Below are positions 1 to 14,075 of a stretch of DNA of 64,000 nucleotides, piece after piece. Each line of letters opens with the position of its first letter. Position 1 is the first letter of the stretch. Under the pieces are notes generated by a model, which did no database searches, was not told the origin of the DNA, and saw only the letters and a list, made by a program, of their open reading frames with translations. The translations under genes were made by a program, and so were the position numbers. The DNA is from Nitrospirales bacterium (GTDB taxonomy: Bacteria > Nitrospirota > Nitrospiria > Nitrospirales > UBA8639), in the NCBI GenBank assembly GCA_012270585.1, contig JAAXIB010000020.1, forward strand, positions 13,187 through 77,186, written 5' to 3'.

Positions 1-150
1 GAGCCGGTGGAAGACGCGCTGCAGCGAATGACGGAGCACTCGCTGACGGTGATACCGGTGAGGGACCGGGAGTCCCGGAAGTTTCTGGGTGTGGTCAACA
101 TCCGGCAGATTCTGGAACTCATCACCCGAGAAGCCACCGGCGAATATTAA
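1..150 (+). CDS. C-terminal end of a CBS-domain protein (5' end outside window)
   Basis: Frame 1 is open from nt 1 to TAA at 148-150. Translation ...LTVIPVRDRESRKFLGVVNIRQILELI... has the pattern of a CBS motif C-terminus. Confidence 0.45.
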   Translation, partial: EPVEDALQRMTEHSLTVIPVRDRESRKFLGVVNIRQILELITREATGEY

Positions 151-223: not shown

Positions 224-252
224 TTGACAATTCCCAGACAATCAGAAATAAT
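224..252 (+). promoter_or_regulatory. candidate sigma70-type promoter upstream of the 51-aa ORF
   Basis: TTGACA (224-229), 17-nt spacer, AATAAT (247-252), in an AT-rich intergenic stretch. Confidence 0.35.
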
Positions 253-324
253 ACAATTTGTAGAATTAGCAAAGAAAAGAGAAGGGTTCAATGACTTTCA
301 GATCATTGGATAAGAAGGTGCGCT

Positions 325-480
325 ATGGATGAAAAAACAAATAAGGACGTAGAGCCCGAGAAGGTGGAGTCCGAGCCCCTGGAGTCTGAACTCCTGGATG
401 ACGACGAGATGGACAAGATCGTCGGCGGCAATGCGCCCTACAGCCACGCGCCTGATGGCACGCCTTGGAAGCCCCAGTAA
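325..480 (+). CDS. 51-aa peptide with double-glycine-type leader motif (candidate secreted or modified peptide precursor)
   Basis: ATG at 325 preceded by GAAGGTG 5-6 nt upstream, TAA at 478-480. Translation is MDEKTNKDVEPEKVESEPLESELLDDDEMDKIVGG|NAPYSHAPDGTPWKPQ. Below the 60-aa cutoff of the ORF track. Confidence 0.5.
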   Translation: MDEKTNKDVEPEKVESEPLESELLDDDEMDKIVGGNAPYSHAPDGTPWKPQ

Positions 481-637
481 TTTTCCCCTCGTCTGTCCCT
501 TCACCTACCGTTGGTGCCTTTCTTCGAGTCGGGCTCACCATGCCGACGTGTCGCTCGCCTGTTTGACCCCGTGACGTTGCGGCCCCGAGTCGCCTTCAAC
601 CGCCTATCTCCCGGCATCCTGCCGCCCCATAATTGCC

Positions 638-1936
638 TTGATAGGCAATTTTCATTATAGTGTTCAACCAAGAACAGGCCCAAAGTCTTTCCTCGAAGCT
701 TGTCCCGGTCCAGTCCGGAATGAGATCTTTCGGGAGGGTATCAGAATCAGATACCGTCCGGAAACGCCTCTGATGCTAGAGCCACCATCAGCCTATGTCG
801 AGGGTTATGCGAAGGCCCGTCTTTCGGATCAGTTAGGGGCCGACAACTACGTCAAGCATACCACCATGGGTGATCCCGTGCTGGATCCGGTCATGGAGGA
901 ACTCTCCTCCTTGCCGCCTGCCGCCCTGCATCGGTTTCTCGAGGCGGGGATAGAGCAGGATGAGGATGATCTTCGGGATGCGCCGCAGGCCCTGCGCGAT
1001 TTCTTCAACAATTTGGAAGAGCCTCCCTGGCTGGACTACCAAGCGTTTCGTCCGGGAATTCTGGTCTTCAACGAAAACGTCCAACTCATGCTCGTCGCCT
1101 TCGTGACGGGGGTTCTGGTGGAAGGCTTCGCGACGATGATCGCCAAGTCTTTCAATATTACCAAGCGGGTGGCATTGACCACCAGACGCCTCCGGCAGAA
1201 TAACCGCCAACTGCTGGAAATCTTTTACCCCGGCGGGTTGCGAAGAGACGGGGACGGCTGGAAACTTTCTACGCGCGTGCGCTTCGTGCATGCTCGCATC
1301 AGGAACCTGTTGGCGAAATCCGACGATTGGAAACATGACGCGTGGGGCACACCGCTGAGCGCGGCACACTTGGGGTTTGCCATCTCCGTCTTTTCCAAAC
1401 GCCTGCTGGATTATTCGTCGTTGGTGGGGGCGCGTTTCAGCGAGGAAGAAAAAGAGAGTGTACTGGCCGTGTGGCGCTACGCCGGCTATCTCATGGGCAT
1501 CCCTGAAACCATCCTCTATACCGACGGCGCGGAGGCGGACAAGATTTACCGCATCGGGTATATGTGCGAGCCGCCGCCGGATGTCGATTCCATCACCATG
1601 GCGAATGCCTTGATCCAGTCCATTCCCGTAGTAGCGGGCATTACGGATCCGGGGGAAAAGCAAAAACTGATCGGGTTGGCCTACCGCCTTTCACGCGCGC
1701 TCCTTGGGAACCAACTCGCTGATCAGTTCCAGTATCCAAAGGACTCGACCATCGGAACATTGTTTCTTTTCCGGAACAAACAACGCATGCAACGCTGGGG
1801 CAAACGCTGGTTCAAGAAAGGCGGGGTCAGATCAGAAAATTTTTCTCAACTTCTTCAAATCTCGGTGTATGACGAAGGAGGCTTGAGTTACAAGTTGCCT
1901 GATCATGCTCACACCTCAAAATCGAATCCCTGGTAA
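638..1936 (+). CDS. DUF2236 / MpaB-like oxygenase family protein (start uncertain)
   Basis: 432-aa ORF. The central segment ...RRLRQNNRQLLEIFYPGGL...WKLSTRVRFVHARIRNLL...WGTPLSAAHL... resembles the MpaB/DUF2236 core. The annotated start is a non-ATG codon inside a hairpin; ATG at 773 (MLEPP...) is an alternative. Confidence 0.5.
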   Translation: MIGNFHYSVQPRTGPKSFLEACPGPVRNEIFREGIRIRYRPETPLMLEPPSAYVEGYAKARLSDQLGADNYVKHTTMGDPVLDPVMEELSSLPPAALHRFLEAGIEQDEDDLRDAPQALRDFFNNLEEPPWLDYQAFRPGILVFNENVQLMLVAFVTGVLVEGFATMIAKSFNITKRVALTTRRLRQNNRQLLEIFYPGGLRRDGDGWKLSTRVRFVHARIRNLLAKSDDWKHDAWGTPLSAAHLGFAISVFSKRLLDYSSLVGARFSEEEKESVLAVWRYAGYLMGIPETILYTDGAEADKIYRIGYMCEPPPDVDSITMANALIQSIPVVAGITDPGEKQKLIGLAYRLSRALLGNQLADQFQYPKDSTIGTLFLFRNKQRMQRWGKRWFKKGGVRSENFSQLLQISVYDEGGLSYKLPDHAHTSKSNPW

Positions 1937-1998: not shown

Positions 1999-4296
1999 AT
2001 GGTCACCGCGATGACACCTTTGGACCGCTACATCGTCGCAATTCTGCGCCGCCGGTGGTCGGTCGTTGTGCTGGCTACGCTGCTCATGCTGGTCATGACG
2101 GCGGGTGCTCGCTTGATCATGGTTTCGAACGATTACCGTATCCTGTTCGGCGAAGACAATCCTCAGCTCCTCACGTTCGACGCTCTGGAGAACACCTACT
2201 CCGCGTCGAATTCGGCACTGATCGCCATCGCGCCTCGCGAAAGCTTGGTGTTCACCCGGGAGACGCTCGGCGCGATTGAGGAATTGACCGAAGCCGCGTG
2301 GCGCACCCCGTATTCCATTCGGATCGACTCCCTCACCAACGTTTTTCACAGCGAGGCGTTCGGCGACGATCTGGTCGTCGCCCCGCTCGTGGAGGACGCC
2401 CGATCGAGGAGTGATGAGGAACTGGCGCGAATCGAGACGATCGCGTTGAACGAATCCCAGATAGCCGGGCGGTTGATCTCCGCTGACGGGCGCGTGGCCG
2501 GACTGGCCATCAATTTCGTCCTGCCGGAGAACCCGGACCGGGCCGTGATCGAAATTACCGATTATCTCAATTCGCTCTTGGACCAGGCCCACGCGAGTCA
2601 CCCGGACATCGACTATTACATGACCGGCTACGTGGTTGTGAACCGGGCTTTCGCCGACGTCACACAGGAAGAGATGCAAACCCTGGTGCCGATGGGGTTT
2701 CTCTTCATTATCGGCTTGGCGATCATGCTCCTGCGCTCGGTTCTCGGAACGGTAGCCATTGTCGCCGTTCTCCTCTTCGTTATCAACTCCACCATGGGAT
2801 TCGCCGGCTGGAGCGGCATGGTGCTGAGCCCCACCAACTCCGGCGTGCCGGTGATCGTCATGGTGATAGCCATTGCGGATTCCATTCACATCGTCACGAG
2901 TGTTCTCCTGGGTATGAGGCGCGGTCTGGACAGAAACGCGGCGATTGTCGAATCGATTCGCATCAATACCTACCCGGTCTTTCTCACCTCGATCACGACT
3001 GCGATCGGATTCCTCAGCCTGAACGGCTCGGATTCGCCGCCTTTTCACGTCCTGGGTAACCTTGTGGCCTTCGGCGTCTTGTGCGCCTTCGTCTACACCA
3101 TGACGCTGCTGCCGGCTTTGCTCTCGATTCTGCCGTTGCGCGCACCCCGAGTCCGGTCGGAGGGAACCGCCTTCTTCGACCGCTTTGCCGACTTTGTCAT
3201 CGCCCGACGCACATTTCTGCTCTGGTCCTTTACCCTGGTCGTCGTTGGTCTGATCACCGGCATTCCCCGCATCGAGTTGGGCGATAACCTGACGCAGTTT
3301 TTTGATAAGCGTTACCAAGTCCGGCGCGATGCCGATTACATCGTTGAAAACCTGACCGGCTTGGAGAAGCTGGAATATTCCCTGAATGCCGGACGTGAAG
3401 GGGGCGTGACCGACCCCGACTATCTGCGCAAGGTCGAGGCGTTTACCGAATGGTACCGGCAGCAACCCGAAGTGACCCACGTCCAAGCTTTTTCGGACAT
3501 TATGAAACGTCTCAACAAAAACATGCACGGCGATGACCCGGCCTTCTATCGCCTGCCTGAAAACCAGGATCTTGCGGCGCAGTACCTGTTGTTGTACGAG
3601 TTTTCGCTTCCGTTCGGCAGCGACCTCAACGATCGCATTGACGTCGCCAAATCCGCGACGCGCATGGCCGTCGTGACCAAGGACGGGAACTCTCGATCAC
3701 TGCGGGAACTCGATCAGCGCGCACAGTTCTGGCTCCGCACCAATATACCCGATTTTGCGCAGGAGGCCTCCGGGCTGAGCATCATCGTGGCTCATATGAC
3801 GCAACGAAACATCGACAGCATGTTGGGCAGTACGATCTTCGCCATGGCCCTTATCTCCTTCATCCTGATCGGGGTGTTCAAGAGCGTCCGGATCGGCCTC
3901 CTCAGCCTTCTCCCCAATTTCATCCCTGCACTGATGAGCTTCGGCTTGTGGGGCCATTTCGTCGGTCGCCTGGGCATCGTCTCTTCAGTGGTCGTCGCCG
4001 TCTGCTTCGGAATCGTGGTGGACGATACGATTCATTTTCTGAGCAAATATCTGAAGGCCCGCCGGGAGGGGCTTTCAGCACCCGAGGCCGTGCGCTCCAC
4101 CTTTCACACCGTGGGCCATGCGTTATGGACCACGACCGCGGTCCTGTCGGCGGGTTTTCTGGTGTTCACCATGTCGGGCTTCGAACTCAGTTGGGTGCTC
4201 GGTCTTATGGTTACGATCACGATCGTCTTCGCGATCGCCGCCGATTTCCTGCTGCTTCCTCCTCTGCTGATTGCCCTGGACCGGAGAAATCAATGA
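1999..4296 (+). CDS. RND-superfamily (MMPL/HpnN-like, COG1033-type) exporter
   Basis: 765 aa with two repeated halves. Each half has a large loop followed by a hydrophobic bundle (e.g. ...SIHIVTSVLLGMRRG... and ...DDTIHFLSKYLKARREG...), typical of RND/SSD exporters. Confidence 0.85.
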   Translation: MVTAMTPLDRYIVAILRRRWSVVVLATLLMLVMTAGARLIMVSNDYRILFGEDNPQLLTFDALENTYSASNSALIAIAPRESLVFTRETLGAIEELTEAAWRTPYSIRIDSLTNVFHSEAFGDDLVVAPLVEDARSRSDEELARIETIALNESQIAGRLISADGRVAGLAINFVLPENPDRAVIEITDYLNSLLDQAHASHPDIDYYMTGYVVVNRAFADVTQEEMQTLVPMGFLFIIGLAIMLLRSVLGTVAIVAVLLFVINSTMGFAGWSGMVLSPTNSGVPVIVMVIAIADSIHIVTSVLLGMRRGLDRNAAIVESIRINTYPVFLTSITTAIGFLSLNGSDSPPFHVLGNLVAFGVLCAFVYTMTLLPALLSILPLRAPRVRSEGTAFFDRFADFVIARRTFLLWSFTLVVVGLITGIPRIELGDNLTQFFDKRYQVRRDADYIVENLTGLEKLEYSLNAGREGGVTDPDYLRKVEAFTEWYRQQPEVTHVQAFSDIMKRLNKNMHGDDPAFYRLPENQDLAAQYLLLYEFSLPFGSDLNDRIDVAKSATRMAVVTKDGNSRSLRELDQRAQFWLRTNIPDFAQEASGLSIIVAHMTQRNIDSMLGSTIFAMALISFILIGVFKSVRIGLLSLLPNFIPALMSFGLWGHFVGRLGIVSSVVVAVCFGIVVDDTIHFLSKYLKARREGLSAPEAVRSTFHTVGHALWTTTAVLSAGFLVFTMSGFELSWVLGLMVTITIVFAIAADFLLLPPLLIALDRRNQ

Positions 4297-4364: not shown

Positions 4365-5738
4365 ATGGAAACAAAACGAGTCGTCGTAATCGGCGGAGGA
4401 GCGGCCGGGCTGAGTGCCGCCTACACCCTGAAAAAGCACGGCATCAACGCCATCTTGCTTGAGGCTAACGACCGGGTCGGCGGACGTCTGGGCGGGGACA
4501 GGGTCAACGGCTTTTTTATAGACGAGGGTGCCGACTTCTTCACGCCTTCCTACGACGTTGCTTTTCGCTTGTGCGAGGAATTGGGATTGCCCTTGCTTCG
4601 CTCGAAGATGAACCTCGGCTGGTATAGAAACGGTCGGTGGCTTGCGACTTCCCCGATCGTCTCCCTTCGCACCTTCATCCAGAACGTACCAAGTTTTTGG
4701 AGATTGGGAATGTTGTCCCTTGGAGCCATGAAGTTTGTTAAGATGGTCAAAGATCAATCGGAGTACCTGAATTTCCACAGCGACTGTCGGATCGTCGAGC
4801 TGGACGGGGAGGAGAACGCCCATGACTACATGGAAAGGGTCGGTGTGCCCGAGCACCTGAGGGTGACGTTGCAGGGATTCCTGGAGATGACCATGGGCAC
4901 GCTCGAACAAATGGGTGCTGCCTACGCACTGACGTACTTGTCCGATATCATGATGAAGGCCGATAAACTACTTGTGCCGGAGAAGGGAGTCGGTGCCCTG
5001 TCCCACGCGCTGGCCGACAAATTGGGAGACATGATTCGCGTCTCCACACCCGTCAGAAAAGTGATCATCAAGGAAGGGGTTGTGACCGGCGTGATCGTGG
5101 ATGACGGCCCCATCGAAGCGGAGGCGGTCATCTGTGCCACCTCTGCCTCTATGGTGCCCAAAATCATTTCCGACCTGCCCGACGGAATTCGCCAGGTGCT
5201 CAGCAAGGTAGGCTATTCCAAGGGCTGTCGAGTGGTGATCGGCTTAGACCATCCCCCTCTTCCCCCGGGATGGCATGGGGCGTTGTATCCGGAGGACGAA
5301 ACTCCATTGCTGCTGGACCGCTCCATCAACCTGCCCGCCTGCGTGCCGCCGGGTAAGAGCACGCTCGACCTGCTCGTCGGTCGTGACCGCGCCGAGGAGT
5401 TGTTCCCACTGGACGACGAGGAAATCAAACGCCGGATGCTTGGCGATGCGCGCCGGAACCCCCCGCCTGGTTCCAATCTCCCCGGCGACGACGAGGGGTT
5501 GTTTACTCGCGTGTACCGCTGGCGGGAGGCGGTGTGCATGGGGCCGCCCGGCATGTTCAAGGCAGTGGCCCGGATGCGCCAACGCGACCGGGCTGTGAAG
5601 AACCTTTTCCTGGCAGGCGACTACATGCGGGTGCCCTGCGTGAATGGCGCCTTGGCCAGCGGCGTCGATGCGGCCGAGGAGGTTGTGGAACTTCTGGGAT
5701 CTCGTCCCTTGCAAGAGCGGGCGTCCGGTGCTTTTTGA
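4365..5738 (+). CDS. FAD-dependent oxidoreductase (amine oxidase / phytoene desaturase-like)
   Basis: N-terminal dinucleotide fold VVVIGGGAAGLSAAYTLKKHG...LEANDRVGGR, C-terminal FLAGDY motif, 457 aa. Confidence 0.75.
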   Translation: METKRVVVIGGGAAGLSAAYTLKKHGINAILLEANDRVGGRLGGDRVNGFFIDEGADFFTPSYDVAFRLCEELGLPLLRSKMNLGWYRNGRWLATSPIVSLRTFIQNVPSFWRLGMLSLGAMKFVKMVKDQSEYLNFHSDCRIVELDGEENAHDYMERVGVPEHLRVTLQGFLEMTMGTLEQMGAAYALTYLSDIMMKADKLLVPEKGVGALSHALADKLGDMIRVSTPVRKVIIKEGVVTGVIVDDGPIEAEAVICATSASMVPKIISDLPDGIRQVLSKVGYSKGCRVVIGLDHPPLPPGWHGALYPEDETPLLLDRSINLPACVPPGKSTLDLLVGRDRAEELFPLDDEEIKRRMLGDARRNPPPGSNLPGDDEGLFTRVYRWREAVCMGPPGMFKAVARMRQRDRAVKNLFLAGDYMRVPCVNGALASGVDAAEEVVELLGSRPLQERASGAF

Positions 5739-5763: not shown

Positions 5764-6585
5764 ATGATCAACGCTTATTCCCCCAGATCGGTGCTCTTGT
5801 TTGTGGCACCCTGCTTGGCCTTATTGTCTTGGCTGGGGATGCCGCCCCTCGTGCACTCGGCCACCCCCGAGGAAATCGGGCTCAACATCGCGACTGCCGC
5901 CAGCGACAAGGATGAGGGATTTGGCAATTTCACGGCCACCCAAGTCATGGTGCTGCGTAACAAGCAAGGGCAGGAGAGCCGGCGTCAACTCCACGTCAAG
6001 GTGCTGGAGGTCGCCGACGACGGCGACAAAAGCCTGATGCTGTTCGACGAGCCGCGCGACGTCAAGGGGACCGCGCTGCTCACCCACGGCCATAAGCAGG
6101 AGGCGGACGACCAATGGCTCTATCTCCCCGCGCTGAAACGCGTCAAGCGGATCAGTTCGTCGAACAAATCCGGCTCCTTCATGGGTAGCGAATTCTCCTA
6201 TGAGGACCTGAGTACCCCGGAGGTGGAAAAATTCACCTATCGGTACCTGCGGGACGAACCGTGCGGGGACTTGACGTGCACGGTTACGGAGCGGTTCCCG
6301 GTGGACAAGAAAGCCTCGGGCTACAGCCGCCAAGTGGTCTGGCGCGACAAGGACGAACTGCGCACCTGGAAAGTCGAGTACTACGACCGCAAGGACGCGC
6401 ATTTGAAGACGCTCACCATCGGGAAGTACCAGCAATACCTGGACAAGTACTGGCGCGCCGGTGAGATGAACATGGTCAATCATCTCACGGGCAAGAGTAC
6501 CGTGTTGACCTGGACGGATTATCAGTTCCGGACCAAACTCAAAGATCGTGACTTCAGTAAGACCGGATTGAAACGGGCGCGGTGA
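5764..6585 (+). CDS. outer-membrane lipoprotein-sorting (LolA-like) protein
   Basis: Signal peptide, then DQWLYLPALKRVKRISSSNKSGSFMGSEFSYEDL, a signature of the LolA-like family that accompanies COG1033 exporters. Confidence 0.75.
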   Translation: MINAYSPRSVLLFVAPCLALLSWLGMPPLVHSATPEEIGLNIATAASDKDEGFGNFTATQVMVLRNKQGQESRRQLHVKVLEVADDGDKSLMLFDEPRDVKGTALLTHGHKQEADDQWLYLPALKRVKRISSSNKSGSFMGSEFSYEDLSTPEVEKFTYRYLRDEPCGDLTCTVTERFPVDKKASGYSRQVVWRDKDELRTWKVEYYDRKDAHLKTLTIGKYQQYLDKYWRAGEMNMVNHLTGKSTVLTWTDYQFRTKLKDRDFSKTGLKRAR

Positions 6586-7958
6586 TGCGAGGTCGTGGCG
6601 CTCGTTACCCCGTGGCCCTCACGGCGATCTGGCTGGTGGCAGCGATTGTTGCCGCCGAAGCCCATGCGGAATTCGAGATCGTGGCTCAGGAATTGTCCGG
6701 GCGCGTGAGCCTGGAAGGCCGTGCCTTTCCGGAAACCGGCATTGATCCCACGCATCAGCGCTCGTATACGACAGGCTTTGTGGTGGAGCCCAAACTCTAC
6801 TTGGAAGAGGCCGAGGGGAGCAGTTTCACCCTGGTGCCGTTCTTTCGCTACGACAGCGCGGACTCAGTCCGCACCCACTGGGATCTGCGGGAAGCGTACG
6901 TTCTGCTGTTCGGCGAGCTCGGCGAGGGCGAATGGGAGGTGCGGCTGGGCGTGGACCGGGTGTTCTGGGGTGTCGCCGAATCGCAACACCTGGTCGACAT
7001 CATCAACCAGATCGACTTCCTCGAACATCCCAACGGCGAGGTGAAGTTGGGGCAACCCATGGTTCACGTGACGTGGACCGGCGATTGGGGTGCCTTGGAA
7101 TTCTTCGGGCTGCCGTATCACCGCCCGCGTATCTACCCGGGCCAAGGCGGTCGCCTGCGCTTTGCAGGACTCGTGAACCGCGATCAGGTGGAGTATGAAA
7201 GCGGGGCCGAAGAGTGGCATCCGGATTTCGCGGCCCGTTACAGTCACAGCTTCGGCCCCCTGGATATCGGCCTGAGTGTGTTCAATGGTACAAGCCGGGA
7301 AGCGAGCCTGATTTGTATGCCGCCTGCTTGTAAGCTGACCGGGGTCAGTGATGTCTCCAATGTCTGGATTCCGTACTACACGCAGATCCGCCAGTTTGGG
7401 CTGGATGCGCAACTGACGCTCGACGCCTGGCTGTTCAAGTTTGAGGCGATGCATCGCTCGGGCGAACGCAACCTCCTCGGTCGGGAACAGGAGTTCGTAG
7501 AGGAGTACATGGCTGCCGCGGTAGGGGCAAGTGGATTCGACGATCTAGCCGGCACCCTTCGGGAAGAAGAATACATGGCCGCCGTGGTGGGAGGCGAATA
7601 CACGTTCTATTCCGTCTTTGGTTCTACGGCCGACATCGGCCTGCTGGCCGAATGGAATTATGACGAGCGGGGCCGGCGAGCGCTTCCCAGGCGCCAGCCC
7701 ATGACTCTAGACAACGATTTTTTCCTGGGTGCGCGTTTTGCGTTCAACGACATCCAGAGCACCGAGATCACTGCCGCGTTTTTGACGGACGCGAGCCGTG
7801 AAACCCGCACGTTGGCCGTCGAATTCGACCGGCGGCTCTTCGATCAATGGTCCCTGTACGCGGCGGCGAACATGATTCTCAGCATCGACCCATTGGATCT
7901 TCAATACGTGGGGCGACGCGACGGCTTCTTCGAGTTCCACTTGGAGTACAATTTCTAG
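6582..7958 (+). CDS. putative outer-membrane beta-barrel protein
   Basis: Overlaps the upstream stop by 4 nt. Has a signal peptide (…AAEAHA|EFE), alternating hydrophobic pattern and a C-terminal ...HLEYNF aromatic terminus. Confidence 0.5.
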   Translation: MMRGRGARYPVALTAIWLVAAIVAAEAHAEFEIVAQELSGRVSLEGRAFPETGIDPTHQRSYTTGFVVEPKLYLEEAEGSSFTLVPFFRYDSADSVRTHWDLREAYVLLFGELGEGEWEVRLGVDRVFWGVAESQHLVDIINQIDFLEHPNGEVKLGQPMVHVTWTGDWGALEFFGLPYHRPRIYPGQGGRLRFAGLVNRDQVEYESGAEEWHPDFAARYSHSFGPLDIGLSVFNGTSREASLICMPPACKLTGVSDVSNVWIPYYTQIRQFGLDAQLTLDAWLFKFEAMHRSGERNLLGREQEFVEEYMAAAVGASGFDDLAGTLREEEYMAAVVGGEYTFYSVFGSTADIGLLAEWNYDERGRRALPRRQPMTLDNDFFLGARFAFNDIQSTEITAAFLTDASRETRTLAVEFDRRLFDQWSLYAAANMILSIDPLDLQYVGRRDGFFEFHLEYNF

Positions 7959-8055: not shown

Positions 8056-10353
8056 TCATTCTGTTGTGTTTTCCATGCTGCTGAGGGCTTCCGCAGGGGG
8101 CTCCAGCGGTAACAAGACGCGCATCTCGGTGTAGTGTCCCTCTTCGGTGTCGACCTGGATGGAGCCACCGTGACGAACCAGAATGTCTCTGGTCAGGGAC
8201 AGCCCCAGACCAGTGCCCTTCCCCGGTTCCTTGGTCGTCACAAAAGGCTCAAAAATCTTGTGGCGCATGTCCTCCGGGATACCGGTTCCATTGTCCCGGA
8301 TCGAGAACTCCACGTGATCCTTCACCTTCCGGCTGGAGATCGACAGTTCCGGTGCGTAGTCGCCATCGGTCTTTTTCTGTTTTTCGTTCAGCGCCTGAAA
8401 CGCGTTGGTGGCGAGATTGAGGAACACGCGACAGATATCCTGTGGGATGACCACAATCTCTTCGAGGTTCGGGTCCAGATCTTTCTTCATCTCCGCGTTG
8501 AAGGAGTTATCTTCGGCGCGCAGCGCGTGATAGGACAGGTTCACGTACTGTTTCAACAGGGCGTTCAGATTCGTCTTGCGCCACTCCCCTTCTTTGCTGC
8601 GGGAATGTTCCAGCATGCTGCGCACGATGTTGTCGGCTCGCTTACCGTGTTCTTTGATTTTACCGAGGCTCGTCCGCAGTTCTTCCAGAATCGACTTGAT
8701 CTCCTCAAGGTCGAGGTCCTGTTGTTCTTTCATCAGTTCCTCGATCTCATCCGCGAGTTCAATCGAGACGTTGGCAAAATTACTGACGAAGTTGAGAGGA
8801 TTCTTGATTTCGTGTGCCACCCCGGCGGTGAGCTGACCCAAAGACGCGAGTTTCTGCTCGGCAACGACCTGATCCTGGGCCTCCTTCAGATTATTCAGTG
8901 CCTGTTCAAGATTCTCATTTTTGGCGTCCAGCTCTTTGGCCAATTTTTCCACAAGATTCAGACGCTGGACCTCACGGGCGTAACGCCGGAACACCTCCAG
9001 TGCCCTGGTCATGTCGGTGACCTCATCATTCCAGATGAAATACCATATGTTCCGCGTCAAGTAATTGGCAGACCCCTTCATCGGTTTGGCGATATCATAC
9101 CCCTCGACTTGGACGGGGACCTCCAGGTCGCCACTGGCCATCTCGCGCATCGCACTGGCCAAGCCCGTCAGGCGGCGTACCAGGTAGCGCCTCACAAACA
9201 GGGAGCCTAACACAAAAGCGCCTACGGTACCGAAAAGGTTGAGGAGGATCAGAAAAAGGATTCCCGTCTTCACGGCGGCGCGGGAAGCCGTGCTGGACTG
9301 AATGGCCTCCTCGTTGATGTACGCGACCAGATTGTTGACTTCCGACACCAGTGATTCCGAGGTGGTTCGCGCCCTTGCCAAGTCGTCCTGCTCCTGTTCC
9401 AGCCTGAACAGGGCCTCCTGGCGCAGTTTAATGACTCCTTCCTGGCCTTCCCCGATTTCGTCCAGACGCATCAGGTTTTCTTGAAGAAGGTCATTCTGCA
9501 TGGAATCCGGCAGCTTCGCATAGGCGTGTATGAAATTCCGGACGGCACTCTGGAAGCGTTCCTCCAAGGGGGTGAGAAACTGGCGATCAGCCAGAACCAG
9601 GACCTCATCCAACAGCAACACGGCAAGATTGGCGGACTGGTTCACGGTAATCAGATTACGATAGGCGGTCAGTTCGTCTTCCGAAGCCCGCTTATTGGTG
9701 GGGTGAACCTTGTCATCAAACTTCCGTAAGCCTGATACCAGGTAAAAGGCCTGATCATCAATGGCTTGGACCAGCAATCGTTCCACGCGCCTGGTGGTTT
9801 CACCGAGTTCGTCAATGAAGACGTGGAGGGCCCGGTCAATTTCCAGGCGCCGGGCGGAGGATTGCTTGATCCCGTCCAGATGTTCGCCAAGTTCCTCCAG
9901 GTTTGACCTGATCAACCGGGTTTGTTCGCCGAAAGCGGAGCGGGCTTCCAGTTCCAGGATGGTGCTTTCGAGTGAGGTTATTTCCCGAGCTATTTCTTCC
10001 ACCACGGCCGTGTGCTCCTCCTTCGAGGAGGCCGACACCAGACGAAAGGCGCCGTTGACCACGATGGCACTTTTCCGGGCCACGTCCACCGAGCTGATCA
10101 GGTTGGGCATGCTGTATTCTGCCAGCCGGATTTCGTGCTTCAATGTTTCGTTGAAGGTGAAGTAAGCCAGCAACGTGGCACCGCCCATAAGGACAACGGA
10201 ACCAAAGAGCAGGAAATACAGCCTTACGCCGACTCCTATCCGGAAATTTTGCTCGGTTTCCGGCTCTTCAATGGCGACAGGGTTCACCTGCCTCCCGGAT
10301 GCGCTGGATTCGGTCAGGTCTTGGGGGGATTCTGTGGGAGGGGATTCGTTCAT
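8056..10353 (-). CDS. membrane sensor histidine kinase (large periplasmic domain, HAMP, HisKA, HATPase)
   Basis: 765 aa with two TM segments. H-box ...[18 protein letters not shown]..., N/G boxes ...[10 protein letters not shown]..., ...DNGTGIP..., ...GTGLGLSL.... Confidence 0.85.
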
Positions 10354-11507
10354 GGCGCCGACATCTTTTCTACCGACTGGAATCGTCCCCTTTTGTTGAT
10401 GCGGGTCAGGTATACCCGATCCGAACCCTGATTGTCATTCACGTCGTAGCGTAGATGAAATCCGCCCAGATTAATGTCTCCGGCCTGAATCAGGGCCTGG
10501 AGAAAGTCCTCTCTGGTAGGAGCGGGTTCCGCCAGCCGCAGACCTTCTATGGCGATGCGGCCTGCGAGGTAGCCTTCCAACGACACGAAGCTCGGTTTGC
10601 TGTTGCCGTCAATTTCCTTTAATGCCTTCTGGTATCGCGCGACGATCGGCAGGGAGGTATCCCGAGGAAAAGGCACAACCTGCGTCACGTACACGCCGGT
10701 TCCGTCTGACCCCAACGCTTTCGCCAGAGCGGCGCTGCCGATGAAGGAAATGTTGATGAAATACGGATTGAAGTTGAGTCGTCTCGCCCACCGGATCATG
10801 GTCGCTGCGGGCTTGTAGGCACCCACGATGACGACGGCCTCGGCGTTGGCCCGGCGCAAATCCAGCAGGGCGATTTTGACGGCCTCGGTGTTGCGGGTAT
10901 AGTACACCTCTTCAATCAGGCTCAGGCCATGGCGATTGACCGCGCGGCGCAACCCGTTCAGCCCGGCCTGCCCGAAGGAGTCGTTCTGGTAGAAAATGCT
11001 GATCCGGTCTATGCCCAGATCTTCGTGGAGTCGGACCACCATTTCCTCGGTTTCCTGGTAGTAGGAAGCCCGTACGTTCACCACGTTGGGATGCTTCTCT
11101 GCGTCCCGCAGAAATTCGGCGCCCGTGAACGGGGCAATATACGGAACGCCCGCCTCCGTGGCGACGGGTTGGGCCGATTTCGACGTTGGAGTGCCCACGG
11201 CACCGATCAGGGCAAAGACCTTGTGATCCTCGATCAAGGTGCGGGTATTGGCAATCGCGGCTTCCGGTTCGTATCTGTCGTCCAGCGATTTGAGGCGTAG
11301 CTGGTAATCGTGTACGCCACCTTCGCGATTGACCTCGGAAAACGCCGCGAGGAGTCCGAGGCGCATGCCGATGCCCAGTTCGCGGGCCGGGCCGGTGAGT
11401 GCCGCGGACTGACCGAACACAATCGTCTGTTGATCGGACTCCGCGCGGGCCGGTGCCCACGGTGTCGCCACAACCACCAACAGAAGCAGGATCATCCCTA
11501 TCGTCAT
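10350..11507 (-). CDS. periplasmic substrate-binding protein (Leu/Ile/Val-binding, Peripla_BP_6-like)
   Basis: Signal peptide MTIGMILLLLVVVATPWAPARA, then ...IVFGQSAALTGPARELG.... I chose the ATG at 11507 because the longer ORF would overlap the upstream gene. The stop overlaps the kinase start by 4 nt. Confidence 0.75.
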   Translation of the reverse strand: MTIGMILLLLVVVATPWAPARAESDQQTIVFGQSAALTGPARELGIGMRLGLLAAFSEVNREGGVHDYQLRLKSLDDRYEPEAAIANTRTLIEDHKVFALIGAVGTPTSKSAQPVATEAGVPYIAPFTGAEFLRDAEKHPNVVNVRASYYQETEEMVVRLHEDLGIDRISIFYQNDSFGQAGLNGLRRAVNRHGLSLIEEVYYTRNTEAVKIALLDLRRANAEAVVIVGAYKPAATMIRWARRLNFNPYFINISFIGSAALAKALGSDGTGVYVTQVVPFPRDTSLPIVARYQKALKEIDGNSKPSFVSLEGYLAGRIAIEGLRLAEPAPTREDFLQALIQAGDINLGGFHLRYDVNDNQGSDRVYLTRINKRGRFQSVEKMSAP

Positions 11508-11520
11508 AGGCAGAACAGGG

Positions 11521-12696
11521 TTATGAGGGAACCGCTGCCAGAAAACGTACCGCCATGCAGGTGATGTCGTCCGATTGCACGGCGTCTCCGACAAATTCCT
11601 GCACGGCGTCCACGACGTCCGTGATCACCCGTTCAGAACTCGCACCGGCAAGGTCGGCCAGCCTCTCGTCGAGTCGCGACTCCATGAACTCGGCGCTCTT
11701 GCTGTCTTCCGCTTCCGTGATCCCGTCGGTGTACAGGAACAGGGTGTCACCCGGCGCAAGCTGGATCTGGTTGTTGCGATACGTGTGGCCCGGTTGGACC
11801 CCCAGTACGATATTGCCGGTTTTCGGCACCACCTCGACCCGGGAATCGGTTCTCAGCGCTCTGGGCGGATTGTGCCCGGCGTTGGAATAGCTCAACTCGC
11901 CGGTCCGCAGGTCAAGCACCCCGAAAAACAGCGTGATGAAGATGCACGACGGGTTGCTCTCGCAGAGCAGGTCATTGACCATGGTCAGGCAATCGCTCGG
12001 CGTGGTGTAGTCCTTCGATGCGACCGCGCGCAGGAGCGCACGGGTCACGGTCGTGAACAAGGCCGCAGGCACCCCTTTGCCGGACACGTCCGCAATGACC
12101 AGTCCGAGACGTGATTCGTCAATGAAAAAGAAATCGTACAGGTCCCCGCCGACTTCACGGGCCGGGATGATCACCGCCTTGACGTCGTGATGCTCATTGG
12201 CCGGCAACGCCTCCGGCTGAAACGACATCTGGACGTCCCGGGCCATATCCAATTCCTGTTTGAGGGCAACCAGCCGATCACGGGTTTCCAAGGCCGCTTG
12301 CATGGCTTGAATGTGCTTGAGACCTTTTTCGATGGTGGCTTCGAGATCGTTGAAATCAATCGGTTTGGTCAGAAAGTCGAATGCCCCGCGGTTCATGGCG
12401 GTGCGAATGTTCTTCATGTCCCCGTAGGCGGAGACGATCACTGCCTGTATGTCCTGTTCCGCGTCGGCAAGCTGGCTCAGCAGGGTGAGACCATCCATCA
12501 CCGGCATGTTGATATCGGAGAGGACCAGGTAGATCTCAGGGTTTTCCTTGAGTACCTCAATGGCCTCTTTGCCATTGTGGGCAAACAGGAACTTGAGATT
12601 CCCCTCGCGGATCCGGCGGCGGAATTTCTGACGGATCAGTAACTCGAGATCTTCTTCGTCGTCGACGACCAGCACCTGAGTCGGTGATTTTCCCAT
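11521..12696 (-). CDS. response-regulator receiver fused to PP2C/SpoIIE phosphatase (RsbU-like)
   Basis: REC domain (VLVVDDEED...LSDINMPVMDG...K), then PP2C motifs (...GGDLYDFF..., ...ADVSGKG..., ...LYTDGITEA..., ...QSDDIT...). Confidence 0.85.
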   Translation of the reverse strand: MGKSPTQVLVVDDEEDLELLIRQKFRRRIREGNLKFLFAHNGKEAIEVLKENPEIYLVLSDINMPVMDGLTLLSQLADAEQDIQAVIVSAYGDMKNIRTAMNRGAFDFLTKPIDFNDLEATIEKGLKHIQAMQAALETRDRLVALKQELDMARDVQMSFQPEALPANEHHDVKAVIIPAREVGGDLYDFFFIDESRLGLVIADVSGKGVPAALFTTVTRALLRAVASKDYTTPSDCLTMVNDLLCESNPSCIFITLFFGVLDLRTGELSYSNAGHNPPRALRTDSRVEVVPKTGNIVLGVQPGHTYRNNQIQLAPGDTLFLYTDGITEAEDSKSAEFMESRLDERLADLAGASSERVITDVVDAVQEFVGDAVQSDDITCMAVRFLAAVPS

Positions 12697-12764
12697 CTCT
12701 TGAATGTCCGGTCAGTGCGCTCGAGGTGTATGCCTTGATCGACCGTTCATGAACAAACGGTTGT

Positions 12765-13115
12765 TCACAGCGCCCCGAGCGCATCGGCCCGGGTGGCGCG
12801 AATGTCCAGAATCTCATTGAACCCGCTGATTTCGAAAATTTCAGCGATGTGATCGGCAAGAGCGCAGAACAGGGCCTTGCCGTCTTCTTTCTGCGTCAGA
12901 CGAGCAGCGATCAGCAGCGCGCGCAAGCCGGCACTGCTGATATAACTCAGATCCTTAAAATCAAAGATCAGAGTCTTATGCCCGGCATTGATCTGTTCCT
13001 GTACGGCACTCTCCAGAATTCCCACACTGGAACCATCCACTCGCCCGATCACGATAAGGATCGTGGCCTTGTCACTATGCTCGGCTTCCACGGATAGCTT
13101 ATATCGTTCTTCCAT
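12765..13115 (-). CDS. STAS-domain anti-sigma-factor antagonist (RsbV/SpoIIAA-like)
   Basis: 116 aa; ...LIFDFKDLSYISSAGLRALL... contains the conserved phosphorylatable Ser context. Confidence 0.85.
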   Translation of the reverse strand: MEERYKLSVEAEHSDKATILIVIGRVDGSSVGILESAVQEQINAGHKTLIFDFKDLSYISSAGLRALLIAARLTQKEDGKALFCALADHIAEIFEISGFNEILDIRATRADALGAL

Positions 13116-13534
13116 AACTTTTCCTCCAATTCGGCCTTACTTGAAAGTCTTTATAAAGTAACACCTGTAGTTCTTCAAGTTCTTCAATCAGTATTGCTTC
13201 AAACACCACCCATGCACAACCTTCCATGAAGTGTTTTCGTTAATTCAAGAAAGAATATCATTCCCTCCATCTTGCTTCAATAGCCATCTCTATACTGCAC
13301 AATATTAGGGTTTCTACATAAATCTCAATCGGTAGAGATGCTGATAGCACTCCATTGGAGTCGGTAGGCCAATGGCATCATGGGGGTTATGGCAGGGTTG
13401 AAGTTGGGCTTGGCTGGTGGCGTGACGGGGGTTGTCTTTTACCATTTGGAATTGGCATGTTGATTCAGCGCAACCCCAAATACCATGCCAAGGCTATACG
13501 AACACGAACGATATGTGTATGATTTGGTTCTATC

Positions 13535-13963
13535 ATGACTGAAATGAAACGGACTTCCCTTACGCCGGACTTGTCCTCGATTACGGAACTGGAGCAGACT
13601 CTTAAAGAGTTCGCCAGTGACCACGAGTTGGATATGGGATTACAGAATCGCCTGAATCTGATGCTCGAAGAACTGATCACCAATAGTGTGAACTACTCCC
13701 TGCAAACGGTGTCCGGACCGGAACTGGAGTTATGGCTGTCTCTGGAAGAAACGTTTGTCGTGGCTCGGCTTGAAGATAACGGACCCGCGTTCAACCCGTT
13801 CAGCGAAGCACCCGAAGCGGATACGACCTCATCCCTGGCGGATCGGCCCATTGGGGGGCTGGGCATCTATCTCACGAAAAAGTTTGCGGATGAATACGCT
13901 TACGAGCGGGTTGGCGAGCGCAACCGGGTGACCTTGCGGTGCAAAATCGGAACCCCCTCGTAA
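13535..13963 (+). CDS. anti-sigma regulatory factor / Ser-Thr kinase (RsbW-like, HATPase_c_2)
   Basis: 142 aa; N-box ...LEELITNSVNY..., ...LEDNGPAFNP..., G-box ...GGLGIYL.... Divergent from the STAS gene across an AT-rich 420-nt spacer. Confidence 0.75.
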   Translation: MTEMKRTSLTPDLSSITELEQTLKEFASDHELDMGLQNRLNLMLEELITNSVNYSLQTVSGPELELWLSLEETFVVARLEDNGPAFNPFSEAPEADTTSSLADRPIGGLGIYLTKKFADEYAYERVGERNRVTLRCKIGTPS

Positions 13964-14075
13964 GCTATCTGTGCGGACCGACTGAATCGCGTCTCAATGG
14001 GTACAAGGCCACTGAGACAACCTTCCGGTGTCAGGCCTGTTCTGCCTCGCAAACGTCTTGTAGCCCGGGGATGAT

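What the first reader, a model, noticed from the sequence alone, without database searches (positions are those of the whole stretch)
224..480. Promoter-equipped 51-aa ORF with a double-glycine leader-type motif
**Peptide:** MDEKTNKDVEPEKVESEPLESELLDDDEMDKIVGG|NAPYSHAPDGTPWKPQ. It has an acidic ~35-aa N-terminal part ending in ...EL..D.EMDKIVGG. This fits the LSxxELxxIxGG-type double-glycine leader of class II bacteriocins and many RiPPs. A 16-aa Cys-free core rich in Pro, His and Trp follows.

**Expression signals:** a near-consensus promoter (TTGACA-17-AATAAT), a Shine-Dalgarno sequence, and a hairpin (AATTGCC-N6-GGCAATT) downstream.

**Neighbours:**
- a heme-oxygenase-type DUF2236/MpaB-like protein
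- an RND exporter
- a flavoprotein
- outer-membrane components

**Missing:** no C39-peptidase ABC transporter is visible in the window. The upstream gene, which ends in a CBS motif, is cut off by the window edge.
Basis: partly seen in the sequence, partly recalled or inferred. Interest (0 to 1): 0.6.

Follow-up and report, generated by a model that had tools for sequence, protein, structure and literature searches.

The report
Orphan secreted-peptide gene in sponge symbiont
This is a real, conserved but unannotated 51-codon gene of a nitrite-oxidising sponge-symbiont bacterium; it encodes a short peptide with a cut-and-export tag that is most likely processed by a peptidase-transporter encoded elsewhere in the genome, a known kind of system whose product here has an unknown role.

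Summary
**Verdict:** the ORF (window 325-480, +) is real and protein-coding.

**Evidence that it codes:**
- Intact single copies occur in 20 of 38 genomes of its genus (GTDB "bin75", *Ca.* Nitrosymbion).
- 51 protein clusters match it in public data; all are unnamed.
- It is open only in this frame. dN/dS is 0.42, against about 1 in the shifted frames.

**Where selection acts:**
- The 12 leader residues before Gly-Gly, namely L-12, E-8, L/M-7, I-4 and GG.
- A C-terminal core motif, A-P-D-G, followed by T/K-I-L-P or T-P-W-K-P.

**Export route:**
- No peptidase-transporter lies nearby.
- Contig C18 carries a complete NHLP-type export set inside a thiazole/oxazole RiPP cluster: HlyD, a PCAT with an intact C39 catalytic set, and ABC2. 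The cluster has two precursors of its own.
- All 20 peptide-bearing genomes have a PCAT, against 3 of 17 genomes without the peptide.
- A distant relative of the peptide sits directly behind an NHLP-type ABC2 gene.

**Neighbours:** the MpaB, MMPL and flavoprotein genes are repeatedly lost while the peptide gene stays intact. They are probably not its maturation enzymes.

**The "hairpin":** it overlaps the conserved promoter of the next operon and is not a terminator.

**Classification:** a new, genus-restricted member of the double-glycine exported peptides. The function of the 16-residue product is unknown.

The parts
1..150 (+). 3' end of the upstream gene: NhaP-type Na+/H+ exchanger with a C-terminal CBS domain. 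It is not part of the system and serves as a synteny marker.
   Evidence: Pfam PF00999 + PF00571 on the full gene in L001; 87-92% identical orthologues sit upstream of the peptide in relatives.
224..252 (+). Sigma-70-type promoter of the peptide gene: -35 TTGACA at 224-229, 17-nt spacer, -10 AATAAT at 247-252. The spacer is also conserved (ATCAGAAAYAAT).
   Evidence: 11 of 12 consensus match. This is the most conserved block of the intergenic region, 0.72-0.83 identity. It is retained in L041, where the upstream gene differs. The motif is unique in the genome.
279..299 (+). Short 5'-UTR hairpin (5 bp; weak in this genome) with a conserved TTTCAAT-like loop. Significance uncertain.
   Evidence: RNAalifold: 5 pairs, 3 with compensatory changes, consensus energy only -2.8 kcal/mol.
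314..320 (+). Shine-Dalgarno sequence GAAGGTG, 4 nt before the ATG.
   Evidence: Read from the sequence.
325..429 (+). Leader peptide, residues 1-35 (MDEKTNKDVEPEKVESEPLESELLDDDEMDKIVGG), net charge about -10. The double-glycine recognition motif is L24(-12), E28(-8), M29(-7), I32(-4), G34, G35. Predicted cleavage follows G35 (nt 429).
   Evidence: Alignment A4: L-12 and G-1 invariant, I-4 and D-11 at 90% or more. pN 0.14 against pS 0.52 in the last 12 leader residues. AF2 places a helix at residues 26-33 at low confidence.
430..480 (+). Core peptide, residues 36-51 (NAPYSHAPDGTPWKPQ; 16 aa, no Cys, predicted [M+H]+ 1765.83), plus the stop codon. The A-P-D-G motif is invariant. This is core 'type B' (APDGTPWKPQ).
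   Evidence: A, D and G invariant and P at 90% or more in 36 members. Type B recurs in P0043-P0050 and P0060. pN 0.17 against pS 0.45 from APDG to the end. Masses.
631..661 (+). Second promoter-like site, TTGCCT-17-TATAGT (633-661), overlapped by the palindrome AATTGCCTTGATAGGCAATT (631-650). Probably the promoter, and possibly an operator, of the MpaB operon rather than a terminator.
   Evidence: The hexamers are conserved in relatives but the palindrome is only partly so. It forms a conservation island of 0.57-0.64.
773..1936 (+). MpaB/Lcp-type (DUF2236, PF09995) putative haem oxygenase. A neighbour that the peptide gene can do without.
   Evidence: Pfam E 4.6e-19. Start inferred from the G008 orthologue, MVQPPSAYVEGY. 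Lost or degraded in L024, L031, L034 and G033 while the peptide stays intact.
1999..4296 (+). MMPL / HAE3-family RND inner-membrane pump. A neighbour.
   Evidence: PF03176 and TIGR00921. Truncated in G022 and absent in G033, both of which keep the peptide.
4365..5738 (+). FAD amine-oxidase / CrtI-HpnE-like oxidoreductase. A neighbour, present in only some relatives.
   Evidence: PF01593 E 3.5e-49; TIGR03467 E 7e-20. Present in only 3 of the 15 loci L023-L037 (L023, L027, L032), plus L041.
5764..7958 (+). LolA-like periplasmic protein (5764-6585) and DUF1302-like outer-membrane barrel (6582-7958). These are the only neighbours kept next to the peptide gene in every locus that could be read.
   Evidence: PF17131 E 6e-64; PF06980 weak. 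Present in all loci that extend far enough, in L041 and in G033.

Best explanation
The ORF is the single-copy precursor gene of a small secreted peptide.

**Proposed steps:**
1. It is transcribed from its own strongly conserved, probably regulated sigma-70 promoter.
2. The 35-residue acidic leader ends in a canonical double-glycine recognition helix: L-12, E-8, M-7, I-4, G-2, G-1.
3. That motif is recognised in trans by the C39 peptidase domain of the NHLP-type peptidase-ABC transporter on contig C18. This PCAT is TIGR03796-like and has HlyD-like and ABC2 partners.
4. The PCAT cleaves after Gly35 and exports the 16-residue core, NAPYSHAPDGTPWKPQ, probably through one of the genome's three TolC-family channels.
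5. The core has no Cys and lacks the NHLP domain that the cluster's cyclodehydratase would need, so it is most likely released linear and unmodified.
6. Its constrained C-terminal A-P-D-G-T-x-[LW]-[PK] segment is the functional determinant. The first residues of the core vary freely.

**Role:** I favour an extracellular signalling or interaction function, such as a pheromone or a matrix or biofilm factor, in these extracellular sponge-mesohyl symbionts. I think an antibiotic role is less likely, because the product is short, non-cationic and single-copy, and no immunity gene is apparent.

**Shown:** coding status; motif conservation; presence and catalytic integrity of the PCAT; co-occurrence.

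**Inferred:** cleavage site; export in trans; lack of modification; function.
For: **The gene is real and coding:**
- The ORF is conserved in 20 of 38 genus genomes and in 51 public clusters.
- Only this frame is open in all copies, with dN/dS 0.42.

**The leader fits the double-glycine model:**
- L-12 and G-1 are invariant, I-4 is at 90% or more, -7 is hydrophobic and -2 is G/A.
- Constraint is concentrated on the 12 GG-proximal residues (pN 0.14 against pS 0.52) and on APDG to the C-terminus (0.17 against 0.45). The rest is near neutral.
- C39 domains recognise the last ~13 leader residues through -4, -7 and -12. They tolerate diverse cores and leader classes (PMC6363468).
- AF2 puts a helix at residues 26-33, just before GG (low confidence).

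**An exporter is available:**
- The own genome has one PCAT, within an NHLP/TOMM cluster.
- Its Q/C/H/D catalytic residues are present.
- The genome has three TolC-family genes.
- This is the only small ORF in the genome with a strongly acidic leader plus E[LM]xxIxGG.

**The peptide tracks the exporter:**
- All 20 peptide-bearing genomes have a PCAT, against 3 of 17 without the peptide. The naive Fisher p is 1e-7 and is not corrected for phylogeny.
- Two genomes that keep the neighbouring module but lack a PCAT (G008, G002) have no peptide gene.
- A distant relative, P0071, lies 168 nt downstream of a TIGR03797 NHLP-export ABC2 gene.
Against: - There is no transcript or peptide evidence.
- The PCAT is 50-230 kb away or on another contig. 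It has its own cognate NHLP precursors, so service in trans is an inference.
- The co-occurrence is phylogenetically structured. About a dozen related genomes lack the peptide, the PCAT and the module together, so the Fisher p overstates independence.
- The informative discordant genomes are few: two one way and two or three the other.
- No curated GG-leader, NHLP or Nif11 model matches the peptide.
- The leader is 30-35 aa, longer than a C39 domain needs. Its N-terminus (MxEKxNKE) is fairly conserved at DNA level without a clear reason.
- The P0071 link rests on one 1-kb metagenomic contig and a profile E-value of 1e-4.
Confidence: 0.6

Rival explanations
1. RiPP with the neighbours as its machinery. 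The peptide would be tailored by the adjacent MpaB-type oxygenase and/or the flavoprotein, then moved to the cell surface by the MMPL pump, LolA-like protein and DUF1302 barrel. That would define a new RiPP class.
For: - The peptide gene is immediately upstream of this module in every genome.
- It stays there in L041, where the upstream gene is different.
- The LolA-like and barrel genes are retained next to it in all readable loci.
- The core has a conserved Tyr, or Trp in type B, that an oxygenase could target.
Against: - MpaB is lost or degraded in four peptide-bearing genomes (G019/L024, G022/L031, G015/L034, G033).
- MMPL is truncated or lost in two (G022, G033).
- The flavoprotein is present in only 3 of the 15 loci L023-L037 (L023, L027, L032), plus L041. 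In all of these cases the peptide ORF is intact.
- The module exists without the peptide in G008 and G002.
- The module has its own conserved promoter.
- The module matches AmeABCD-type HAE3 efflux of hydrophobic terpenes (PMC6394551). MpaB/Lcp enzymes act on isoprenoid C=C bonds (Pfam description).
- This model does not explain the GG leader or the PCAT co-occurrence.
Confidence: 0.1
2. Narrow-spectrum bacteriocin or class II microcin-like toxin. The route (PCAT cleavage and export) is the same, but the mature peptide kills competing bacteria.
For: - The GG leader and PCAT are the classical bacteriocin and microcin export route (PMC6363468).
- The *Ca.* Nitrosymbion pangenome was reported to contain genus-specific 'bacteriocin protection' genes (PMC11812461).
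- The N-terminal part of the core is variable.
Against: - The product has 16-20 residues, is neutral to acidic (charge -0.15 to -1.6 at pH 7) and is Pro-rich. It has no amphipathic or Cys pattern.
- No small hydrophobic immunity ORF is conserved beside it.
- It is single-copy with dN/dS of about 0.45 in the core, so there is no sign of diversifying selection.
Confidence: 0.12
3. Extra substrate of the C18 TOMM enzymes. The Ser and Thr residues of the core would be cyclodehydrated and oxidised to (methyl)oxazoles before export.
For: - A fused cyclodehydratase/YcaO and a SagB dehydrogenase sit in the same cluster as the PCAT.
- The cores contain Ser and Thr.
Against: - The leader has no NHLP domain: there is no TIGR03793 or PF hit, and it is 35 aa against about 80.
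- Only the last ~8 leader residues resemble those of the cognate precursors.
- The cognate cores are 8-residue Cys/Ser/Thr-rich peptides, whereas this core has no Cys. Its conserved residues are A, P, D and G, not Ser or Thr.
Confidence: 0.05
4. Cis-acting upstream ORF or leader peptide, or a structured 5' region, that regulates the MpaB/efflux operon. The Gly-Gly would be incidental.
For: - It sits directly upstream of the operon.
- No intrinsic terminator is evident between the two.
- There is a small co-varying hairpin in the 5' UTR.
- The first ~36 nt of the ORF are conserved at DNA level.
Against: - Selection acts on the amino-acid sequence of two specific segments, the GG-proximal helix and the APDG tail, not on RNA.
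- The operon has its own conserved promoter 150 nt downstream of the stop codon.
- The ORF persists where the first operon genes are deleted.
- No Rfam match.
- This model does not explain PCAT co-occurrence or the P0071-ABC2 adjacency.
Confidence: 0.06

Closest known systems
Double-glycine-leader peptides cleaved and exported by peptidase-containing ABC transporters (PCAT/AMS): class II bacteriocins, ComC/CSP-type pheromones, LahA/ProcA with LahT (PMC6363468)
   Same: - Acidic leader ending in GG, with hydrophobic residues at -4, -7 and -12.
- A predicted helix before the cleavage site.
- A PCAT with an intact C39 catalytic set in the genome.
- The precursor can lie far from the transporter, as with the scattered ProcA genes.
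   Different: - Gram-negative nitrite oxidiser.
- Single-copy gene with a 30-35-aa leader that belongs to no curated leader family.
- 16-20-aa Cys-free, Pro-rich core with an invariant APDG motif.
- No adjacent immunity, kinase or modification gene.
- Processing has not been shown.
NHLP/Nif11 precursor families with the three-gene exporter TIGR03794/03796/03797 (Haft, Basu & Mitchell 2010, cited in PMC6363468)
   Same: - The candidate exporter is of exactly this type. The genome's two cognate precursors are 88-aa NHLP-like peptides ending ...ELRAA[AT]GG.
- A distant relative of the peptide lies right behind a TIGR03797 gene.
   Different: - The peptide itself has neither an NHLP nor a Nif11 domain (no model hit).
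- It shares only the last ~8-12 leader residues with them.
- It would be a short-leader 'hitch-hiker' on this exporter.
EbfG1-4 / PteB of Synechococcus elongatus PCC 7942 (PMC4997328)
   Same: - Small GG-motif proteins of a Gram-negative bacterium.
- Secreted through a C39 peptidase transporter.
- They serve a non-antibiotic, extracellular role (biofilm formation).
- Their cores contain Pro/Tyr-rich stretches.
   Different: - The EbfG genes form a four-gene operon next to the transporter and encode larger products.
- There is no sequence similarity to this family.
- A biofilm role here is only a conjecture.
AmeABCD-type HAE3 RND efflux system of Castellaniella defragrans (PMC6394551). Closest known for the neighbouring genes, not for the peptide.
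   Same: An HAE3/COG1033 pump, a LolA-superfamily periplasmic protein and a DUF1302-type outer-membrane protein, encoded together and associated with terpenoid handling.
   Different: - The gene order differs, there is no AmeC-like protein, and an MpaB/Lcp oxygenase and a CrtI-like flavoprotein are added.
- No peptide gene is known to be associated with Ame systems.

Membership tests
Double-glycine (GG) leader peptide / PCAT substrate | Gly-Gly (or GA/GS/AG) at positions -2/-1 before the core | tested here: met
   G-1 is invariant and -2 is G in most members, A in a few, across 36 members.
Double-glycine (GG) leader peptide / PCAT substrate | Hydrophobic residues at -4, -7 and -12 on one face of a helix, with an acidic residue near -8 | tested here: met
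   I-4 at 90% or more, L/M/I at -7, L-12 invariant, E/D at -8. Strongest purifying selection falls here. AF2 helix at 26-33 at low confidence. Criteria taken from PMC6363468.
Double-glycine (GG) leader peptide / PCAT substrate | A PCAT with a catalytically competent C39 domain in the same genome | tested here: met
   PF03412 E 4e-35 and TIGR03796 E 1e-224 on C18. QxxxxECG, HF and DP motifs present. All 20 peptide-bearing genomes have a PCAT.
Double-glycine (GG) leader peptide / PCAT substrate | Precursor encoded next to its transporter | tested here: not met
   In this genus the PCAT is on another contig or 53-230 kb away. Adjacency is seen only for the distant relative P0071. This feature is usual but not obligatory; the ProcA genes are an exception.
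Double-glycine (GG) leader peptide / PCAT substrate | Cleavage after GG and export, shown experimentally | not testable with these tools
NHLP (TIGR03793) or Nif11 (TIGR03798/PF07862) leader families | Leader of about 70-80 aa homologous to the nitrile hydratase alpha subunit or to Nif11 | tested here: not met
   No Pfam or NCBIfam hit at E of 0.001 to 0.01 or better. The leader is 30-35 aa. The genome's true NHLP-like precursors look quite different.
RiPP (post-translationally modified peptide) | A tailoring enzyme that co-occurs with the precursor and recognises it | tested here: inconclusive
   The neighbouring MpaB and flavoprotein genes are dispensable. The TOMM enzymes co-occur only through the PCAT cluster, and the peptide lacks their leader and Cys residues. 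Modification is neither shown nor excluded.
Class II microcins / class II bacteriocins | Adjacent immunity gene, and an antimicrobial core (cationic/amphipathic or 60-90 aa) | tested here: not met
   No conserved small ORF lies beside it. The core is 16-20 aa with charge -0.15 to -1.6.
ComC/BlpC-type peptide pheromones | Linked histidine kinase and response regulator that sense the mature peptide | tested here: inconclusive
   A histidine-kinase/SBP/REC-PP2C operon lies convergently at 8056-12696 and is syntenic within the genus. It is not retained in L041, where a P450 gene follows. There is no evidence of sensing.

The most novel reading that the evidence does not exclude
The peptide is a secreted signal, a pheromone-like factor or a matrix or host-interaction factor, of an uncultured Gram-negative nitrite-oxidising sponge symbiont.

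- It would come in two 'pherotypes': ...YAPDG[TK]ILPxx and ...APDGTPWKPQ.
- It would be exported by hitch-hiking on a RiPP cluster's PCAT.
- It would be functionally tied to the LolA-like protein and DUF1302 outer-membrane pair, which is never lost from its side.

That would make it a rare case of ribosomal-peptide signalling outside Gram-positive bacteria, in an animal symbiosis. The conserved strand-turn motif, identical to a WD40 blade segment (S-x-x-YAPDGK-x-L), and the PPxY in some cores could then be receptor or host-protein ligands.
Probability: 0.2. Interest if true: 0.65.

Novelty: new member of a known kind. Interest (0 to 1): 0.36.

Why it matters
- **Unannotated gene family:** it adds a conserved small-gene family to the genomes of *Ca.* Nitrosymbion. 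These are vertically transmitted nitrite oxidisers that live extracellularly in sponges and corals.
- **Broader reach for the exporter:** it suggests that the NHLP-type peptidase exporter serves more than its own cluster's precursors in these reduced genomes.
- **Testable hypothesis:** if the product is a signal or an interaction factor, it gives a concrete molecule to look for. The sequence is defined, the predicted [M+H]+ is 1765.83, and there are two natural variants. This bears on how uncultured symbionts communicate or adhere in the mesohyl.
- **Caution for genome mining:** a strikingly 'RiPP-like' neighbourhood (oxygenase, flavoprotein and exporter) is probably only a syntenic accident.

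Tried and rejected
2. **Paralogues in the own genome.** There are none. tblastn gives only the self hit.
3. **First regex for GG leaders.** It was too strict and missed even the target.
4. **Relatives found by the pattern APDGTPWxP in species genomes**. The only hits were 161-aa phage-morphogenesis-type proteins in *Natronospirillum* and *Azorhizobium*. These are chance motif matches and were rejected.
5. **Large hits of the profile search.** They are WD40-repeat proteins, plus one protein with YxAPDGTxW repeats. This is motif-level resemblance, not homology.
6. **A frameshift origin for the window's unusual C-terminus (TPWKPQ).** Rejected, because the ending is conserved in a subfamily of its own.
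7. **Paralogous MMPL (C55) and MpaB (C53) loci.** Neither has a similar small ORF.
8. **A shared promoter or operator motif linking the peptide gene to the PCAT cluster.** The motif is unique in the genome.
9. **Rfam.** No match over 1-1200.
10. **Antisense or shifted-frame coding.** Rejected on stop codons and dN/dS.
11. **Histidine-kinase operon as the cognate sensor.** No support beyond genus synteny.
12. **Strict 'peptide only where both the module and a PCAT are present' rule.** Weakened once G033 and G022 were seen to lack MMPL and MpaB. G036 is undetermined because its contig ends there.
Full report
**1. Observation.**
- The ORF lies at window 325-480 (+). It encodes MDEKTNKDVEPEKVESEPLESELLDDDEMDKIVGG|NAPYSHAPDGTPWKPQ, exactly as reported.
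- Its promoter-like site, TTGACA-17-AATAAT (224-252), matches 11 of 12 consensus positions. GAAGGTG precedes the ATG.
- The palindrome AATTGCC-N6-GGCAATT is at 631-650.
- The neighbours are as stated: an MpaB/Lcp-type PF09995 protein, an MMPL/HAE3 RND pump, an amine-oxidase/CrtI-HpnE-like flavoprotein, a LolA-like PF17131 protein and a weak DUF1302 match.
- The window is C4:13187-77186 of a 2.5-Mb, 89-contig genome with 55.8% G+C.
- The 13 kb upstream holds a NhaP-type exchanger with a CBS domain, a MatE transporter, a sulfotransferase, aconitase, a KefB-like protein, TatA and a HEAT-repeat protein. There is no peptidase transporter.

**2. The gene is real and coding.**
- A six-frame search of 60 relatives found an intact homologue in 18 of 36 same-genus genomes and none in 24 genomes of other families of the order. 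A 19th relative, G061, was found later. With the window's own genome, that makes 20 of the 38 genomes of the genus.
- All copies are 45-51 codons, all indels are in frame, and there is one copy per genome.
- In-frame dN/dS is 0.42-0.43. This is the only frame open in all 19 copies analysed (the window's own plus the 18 relatives).
- The two shifted sense frames give 0.96 and 1.28, and two of the antisense frames give 0.99 and 1.18. The third antisense frame gives 0.55 but has stop codons in all 19 copies. Every one of these five frames has stops in 4-19 of the 19 copies.
- A profile search of 5.8 billion proteins returned 51 clusters of 45-87 aa. All are unnamed or 'hypothetical protein [Nitrospira sp.]'.
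- No Pfam, NCBIfam or Rfam model matches.

**3. Organism.**
- The related records are Nitrospirales MAGs. They include 'Nitrospira sp. bin75', SB0662/SB0677 bins, RHO3_bin_20 and CO36405bin_1.
- GTDB genus 'bin75' has been named *Ca.* Nitrosymbion. It is a lineage-IVb nitrite oxidiser found mostly in marine sponges and corals. It sits extracellularly in the mesohyl and is vertically transmitted (PMC11812461).

**4. Anatomy of the family.**
- Alignment of 36 diverse members shows invariant M1, L-12, G-1 and the A, D and G of an A-P-D-G core motif.
- K7, D-11, I-4 and the Pro of APDG are at 90% or more. Position -7 is L/M/I, -8 is mostly E, and -2 is G or A.
- There are two core types. Type A is xGPxxxPxYAPDG[TK]ILPxx. 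Type B, the window's, is xAPYG[NH]APDGTPWKPQ.
- Type B recurs in nine clusters (P0042-P0050) and in P0060. It is therefore not a frameshift artefact.
- Region-wise substitution rates are:
  - GG-proximal 12 residues: pN 0.14, pS 0.52.
  - APDG to the end: pN 0.17, pS 0.45.
  - N-terminal leader: pN 0.26, pS 0.34.
  - Mid-leader: pN 0.31, pS 0.35.
  - Variable core start: pN 0.31, pS 0.37.
- Selection therefore acts on exactly two modules. One is the segment a C39 peptidase reads, and the other is the C-terminal half of the product.
- For LahT, the recognition element lies in the last ~13 leader residues. There -4, -7 and -12 pack as a helix into a hydrophobic groove, and the protease accepts very different cores and leader classes (PMC6363468).
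- AF2 with the family alignment gives low confidence overall (pLDDT 60). Its single helix spans residues 26-33, directly before G34-G35.

**5. The missing transporter.**
- PF03412 hits the genome once, on contig C18.
- That locus, in C18 coordinates, reads as follows:
  - HlyD-like protein (9754-10641).
  - PCAT (about 10.7-12.86 kb; TIGR03796 E 1e-224).
  - ABC2 (12843-15761; TIGR03797 E 1e-211).
  - Two 88-aa NHLP-like precursors on the opposite strand: ...EEELRAAAGG|STSGWCCY and ...ESELRAATGG|SDCTTSSY.
  - An unknown 374-aa protein.
  - A fused leader-binding/YcaO cyclodehydratase (TIGR03882 + TIGR03604).
  - A SagB dehydrogenase (TIGR03605).
  - A methyltransferase.
- The C39 domain keeps the Gln, Cys, His and Asp motifs. 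Three TolC-family genes exist.
- A genome-wide scan for small ORFs with E[LIVM]xx[LIVM]xG[GA] found 29. Only the C4 peptide has a strongly acidic leader, with net charge -10.

**6. Co-occurrence.**
- Among 38 genomes of the genus, all 20 with the peptide have a PCAT.
- G036 cannot be judged because its contig ends at the site. Of the other 17 genomes without the peptide, 14 have no C39 domain, one has only a fragment, and two have PCATs.
- The naive Fisher p is 1e-7. The pattern is phylogenetically structured, so it overstates independence: about a dozen genomes lack the peptide, the PCAT and the MMPL module together.
- The informative cases are G008 and G002. They keep the MpaB-MMPL module, have no PCAT, and have no trace of the peptide gene or its promoter.
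- In complete genomes the PCAT lies 53-91 kb from the peptide gene, and 232 kb away in G024. This is a relationship in trans.

**7. Independent link from a distant relative.**
- An exhaustive HMM search of 1.84 billion representatives added a few more small peptides with the same layout.
- One is P0071: ...LDEEELDEIAGG|AGSASETAPDGTPWAPSH.... It comes from a high-G+C metagenomic contig.
- It lies 168 nt downstream of a gene whose last 170 residues match TIGR03797 at E 9e-73. That match is far better than to any other ABC family.
- This supports the view that APDG-type GG peptides are cargo of the NHLP-type exporter. It rests on one short contig.

**8. The neighbouring genes.**
- Synteny in the order NhaP-CBS, peptide, MpaB, MMPL, (flavoprotein), LolA-like, barrel holds across the genus.
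- In the divergent contig L041 the upstream gene is HEM4 instead. The promoter, peptide and module stay together there.
- However, MpaB is missing or reduced to a fragment in G019, G022, G015 and G033. MMPL is truncated in G022 and absent in G033. The flavoprotein is present in only 3 of the 15 loci L023-L037 (L023, L027, L032), plus L041. The peptide ORF is intact in all these cases.
- Only the LolA-like and barrel genes are always retained.
- The module has its own conserved promoter-like site, TTGCCT-17-TATAGT at 633-661.
- By composition the module resembles the AmeABCD HAE3 system for hydrophobic terpene efflux (PMC6394551).
- I conclude that these genes are not the peptide's maturation machinery. 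A looser functional tie, such as co-regulation or use of the outer-membrane pair, is not excluded.

**9. Regulation.**
- The peptide's promoter block, GTTGACAATTC...ATCAGAAAYAATGCAAT, is the most conserved part of the intergenic region (0.72-0.83). Its spacer is conserved too, which suggests a bound regulator.
- The motif occurs nowhere else in the genome.
- A 5-bp hairpin in the 5' UTR shows compensatory changes but little stability.

**10. Interpretation and comparison.**
- The best reading is a short-leader, single-copy, orphan GG-leader precursor. An NHLP-type PCAT cleaves it after G35 and exports it in trans, releasing a 16-residue linear peptide (20 residues in most type A members; [M+H]+ 1765.83).
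- The product is non-cationic, Cys-free and under purifying rather than diversifying selection. It has no immunity gene beside it.
- I therefore favour a signalling or interaction role over antibiosis. The experimentally studied analogue in a Gram-negative bacterium is EbfG/PteB of *Synechococcus elongatus* (PMC4997328).
- The peptide is not a member of the NHLP or Nif11 families, because no domain was found.
- It fits the definition of a double-glycine leader peptide on every sequence criterion I could test. Cleavage and export remain untested.
- I found no description of this family in the literature searches.
- Earlier unchecked notes of this scan describe several comparable orphan GG peptides served in trans. 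The kind of arrangement therefore seems common, which lowers the surprise.

**11. Verdict.**
It is not supported for the neighbours or the terminator.
- This is a new, genus-restricted member of a known kind. Interest is moderate to low, and it is raised somewhat by the host (an uncultured animal symbiont) and by the testable, fully specified product.

Noticed in passing
Own genome, contig C18:9754-23810 (loci L022, L038, L039); outside the window: A complete NHLP-type thiazole/oxazole (TOMM) RiPP cluster. It holds an HlyD-like protein, a PCAT, ABC2, two 88-aa precursors with 8-residue cores (STSGWCCY and SDCTTSSY), an unknown 374-aa protein, a fused cyclodehydratase/YcaO, a SagB dehydrogenase and a methyltransferase.
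   Followed up: partly
window 279-299 and the equivalent positions in L023-L034: A short 5'-UTR hairpin upstream of the peptide ORF. Its arms co-vary between genomes (GGAGG/CCTCC against GAAAGG/CCTTTC) around a conserved TTTCAAT loop. It is only 5 bp with low stability.
   Followed up: partly
window 633-661 and 773: MpaB most likely starts at ATG 773, not at TTG 638. It is preceded by its own conserved promoter-like site, TTGCCT-17-TATAGT. ORF callers that use the longest frame would over-extend the gene by 45 codons.
   Followed up: partly
L024, L031, L034 and L015: The MpaB-MMPL-flavoprotein part of the module is repeatedly deleted or degraded within the genus. G033 retains only the LolA-like and barrel genes, and G022 has MMPL fragments. 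The LolA-like and DUF1302-like genes always persist. Both are single-copy in the own genome, whereas MMPL has a 64% paralogue on C55.
   Followed up: partly
P0052-P0059 and others: The core motif [SG]YAPDG[KT]xL is identical to the strand-turn-strand segment of many bacterial WD40 repeats (SVAYAPDGKTLAS). Some type A cores also contain PPxY (PPPGY, PPSY, PPPSY). P0058 is a 562-aa protein made of YxAPDGTxWxSEE[ED]Y repeats. These are motif resemblances of unknown meaning.
   Followed up: no
L042 (G008:C1:633300-638400), 3032-3409 minus strand: In G008 the place of the peptide gene, between NhaP-CBS and MpaB, is taken by an unrelated 125-aa ORF on the opposite strand. In G002 the whole upstream context differs.
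   Followed up: no
L028 (G013, MEX2-MAG12), 9828-13721: The MMPL, LolA-like and DUF1302 genes each appear split into two or three frames. This is either real pseudogenisation or indel errors in that MAG.
   Followed up: no
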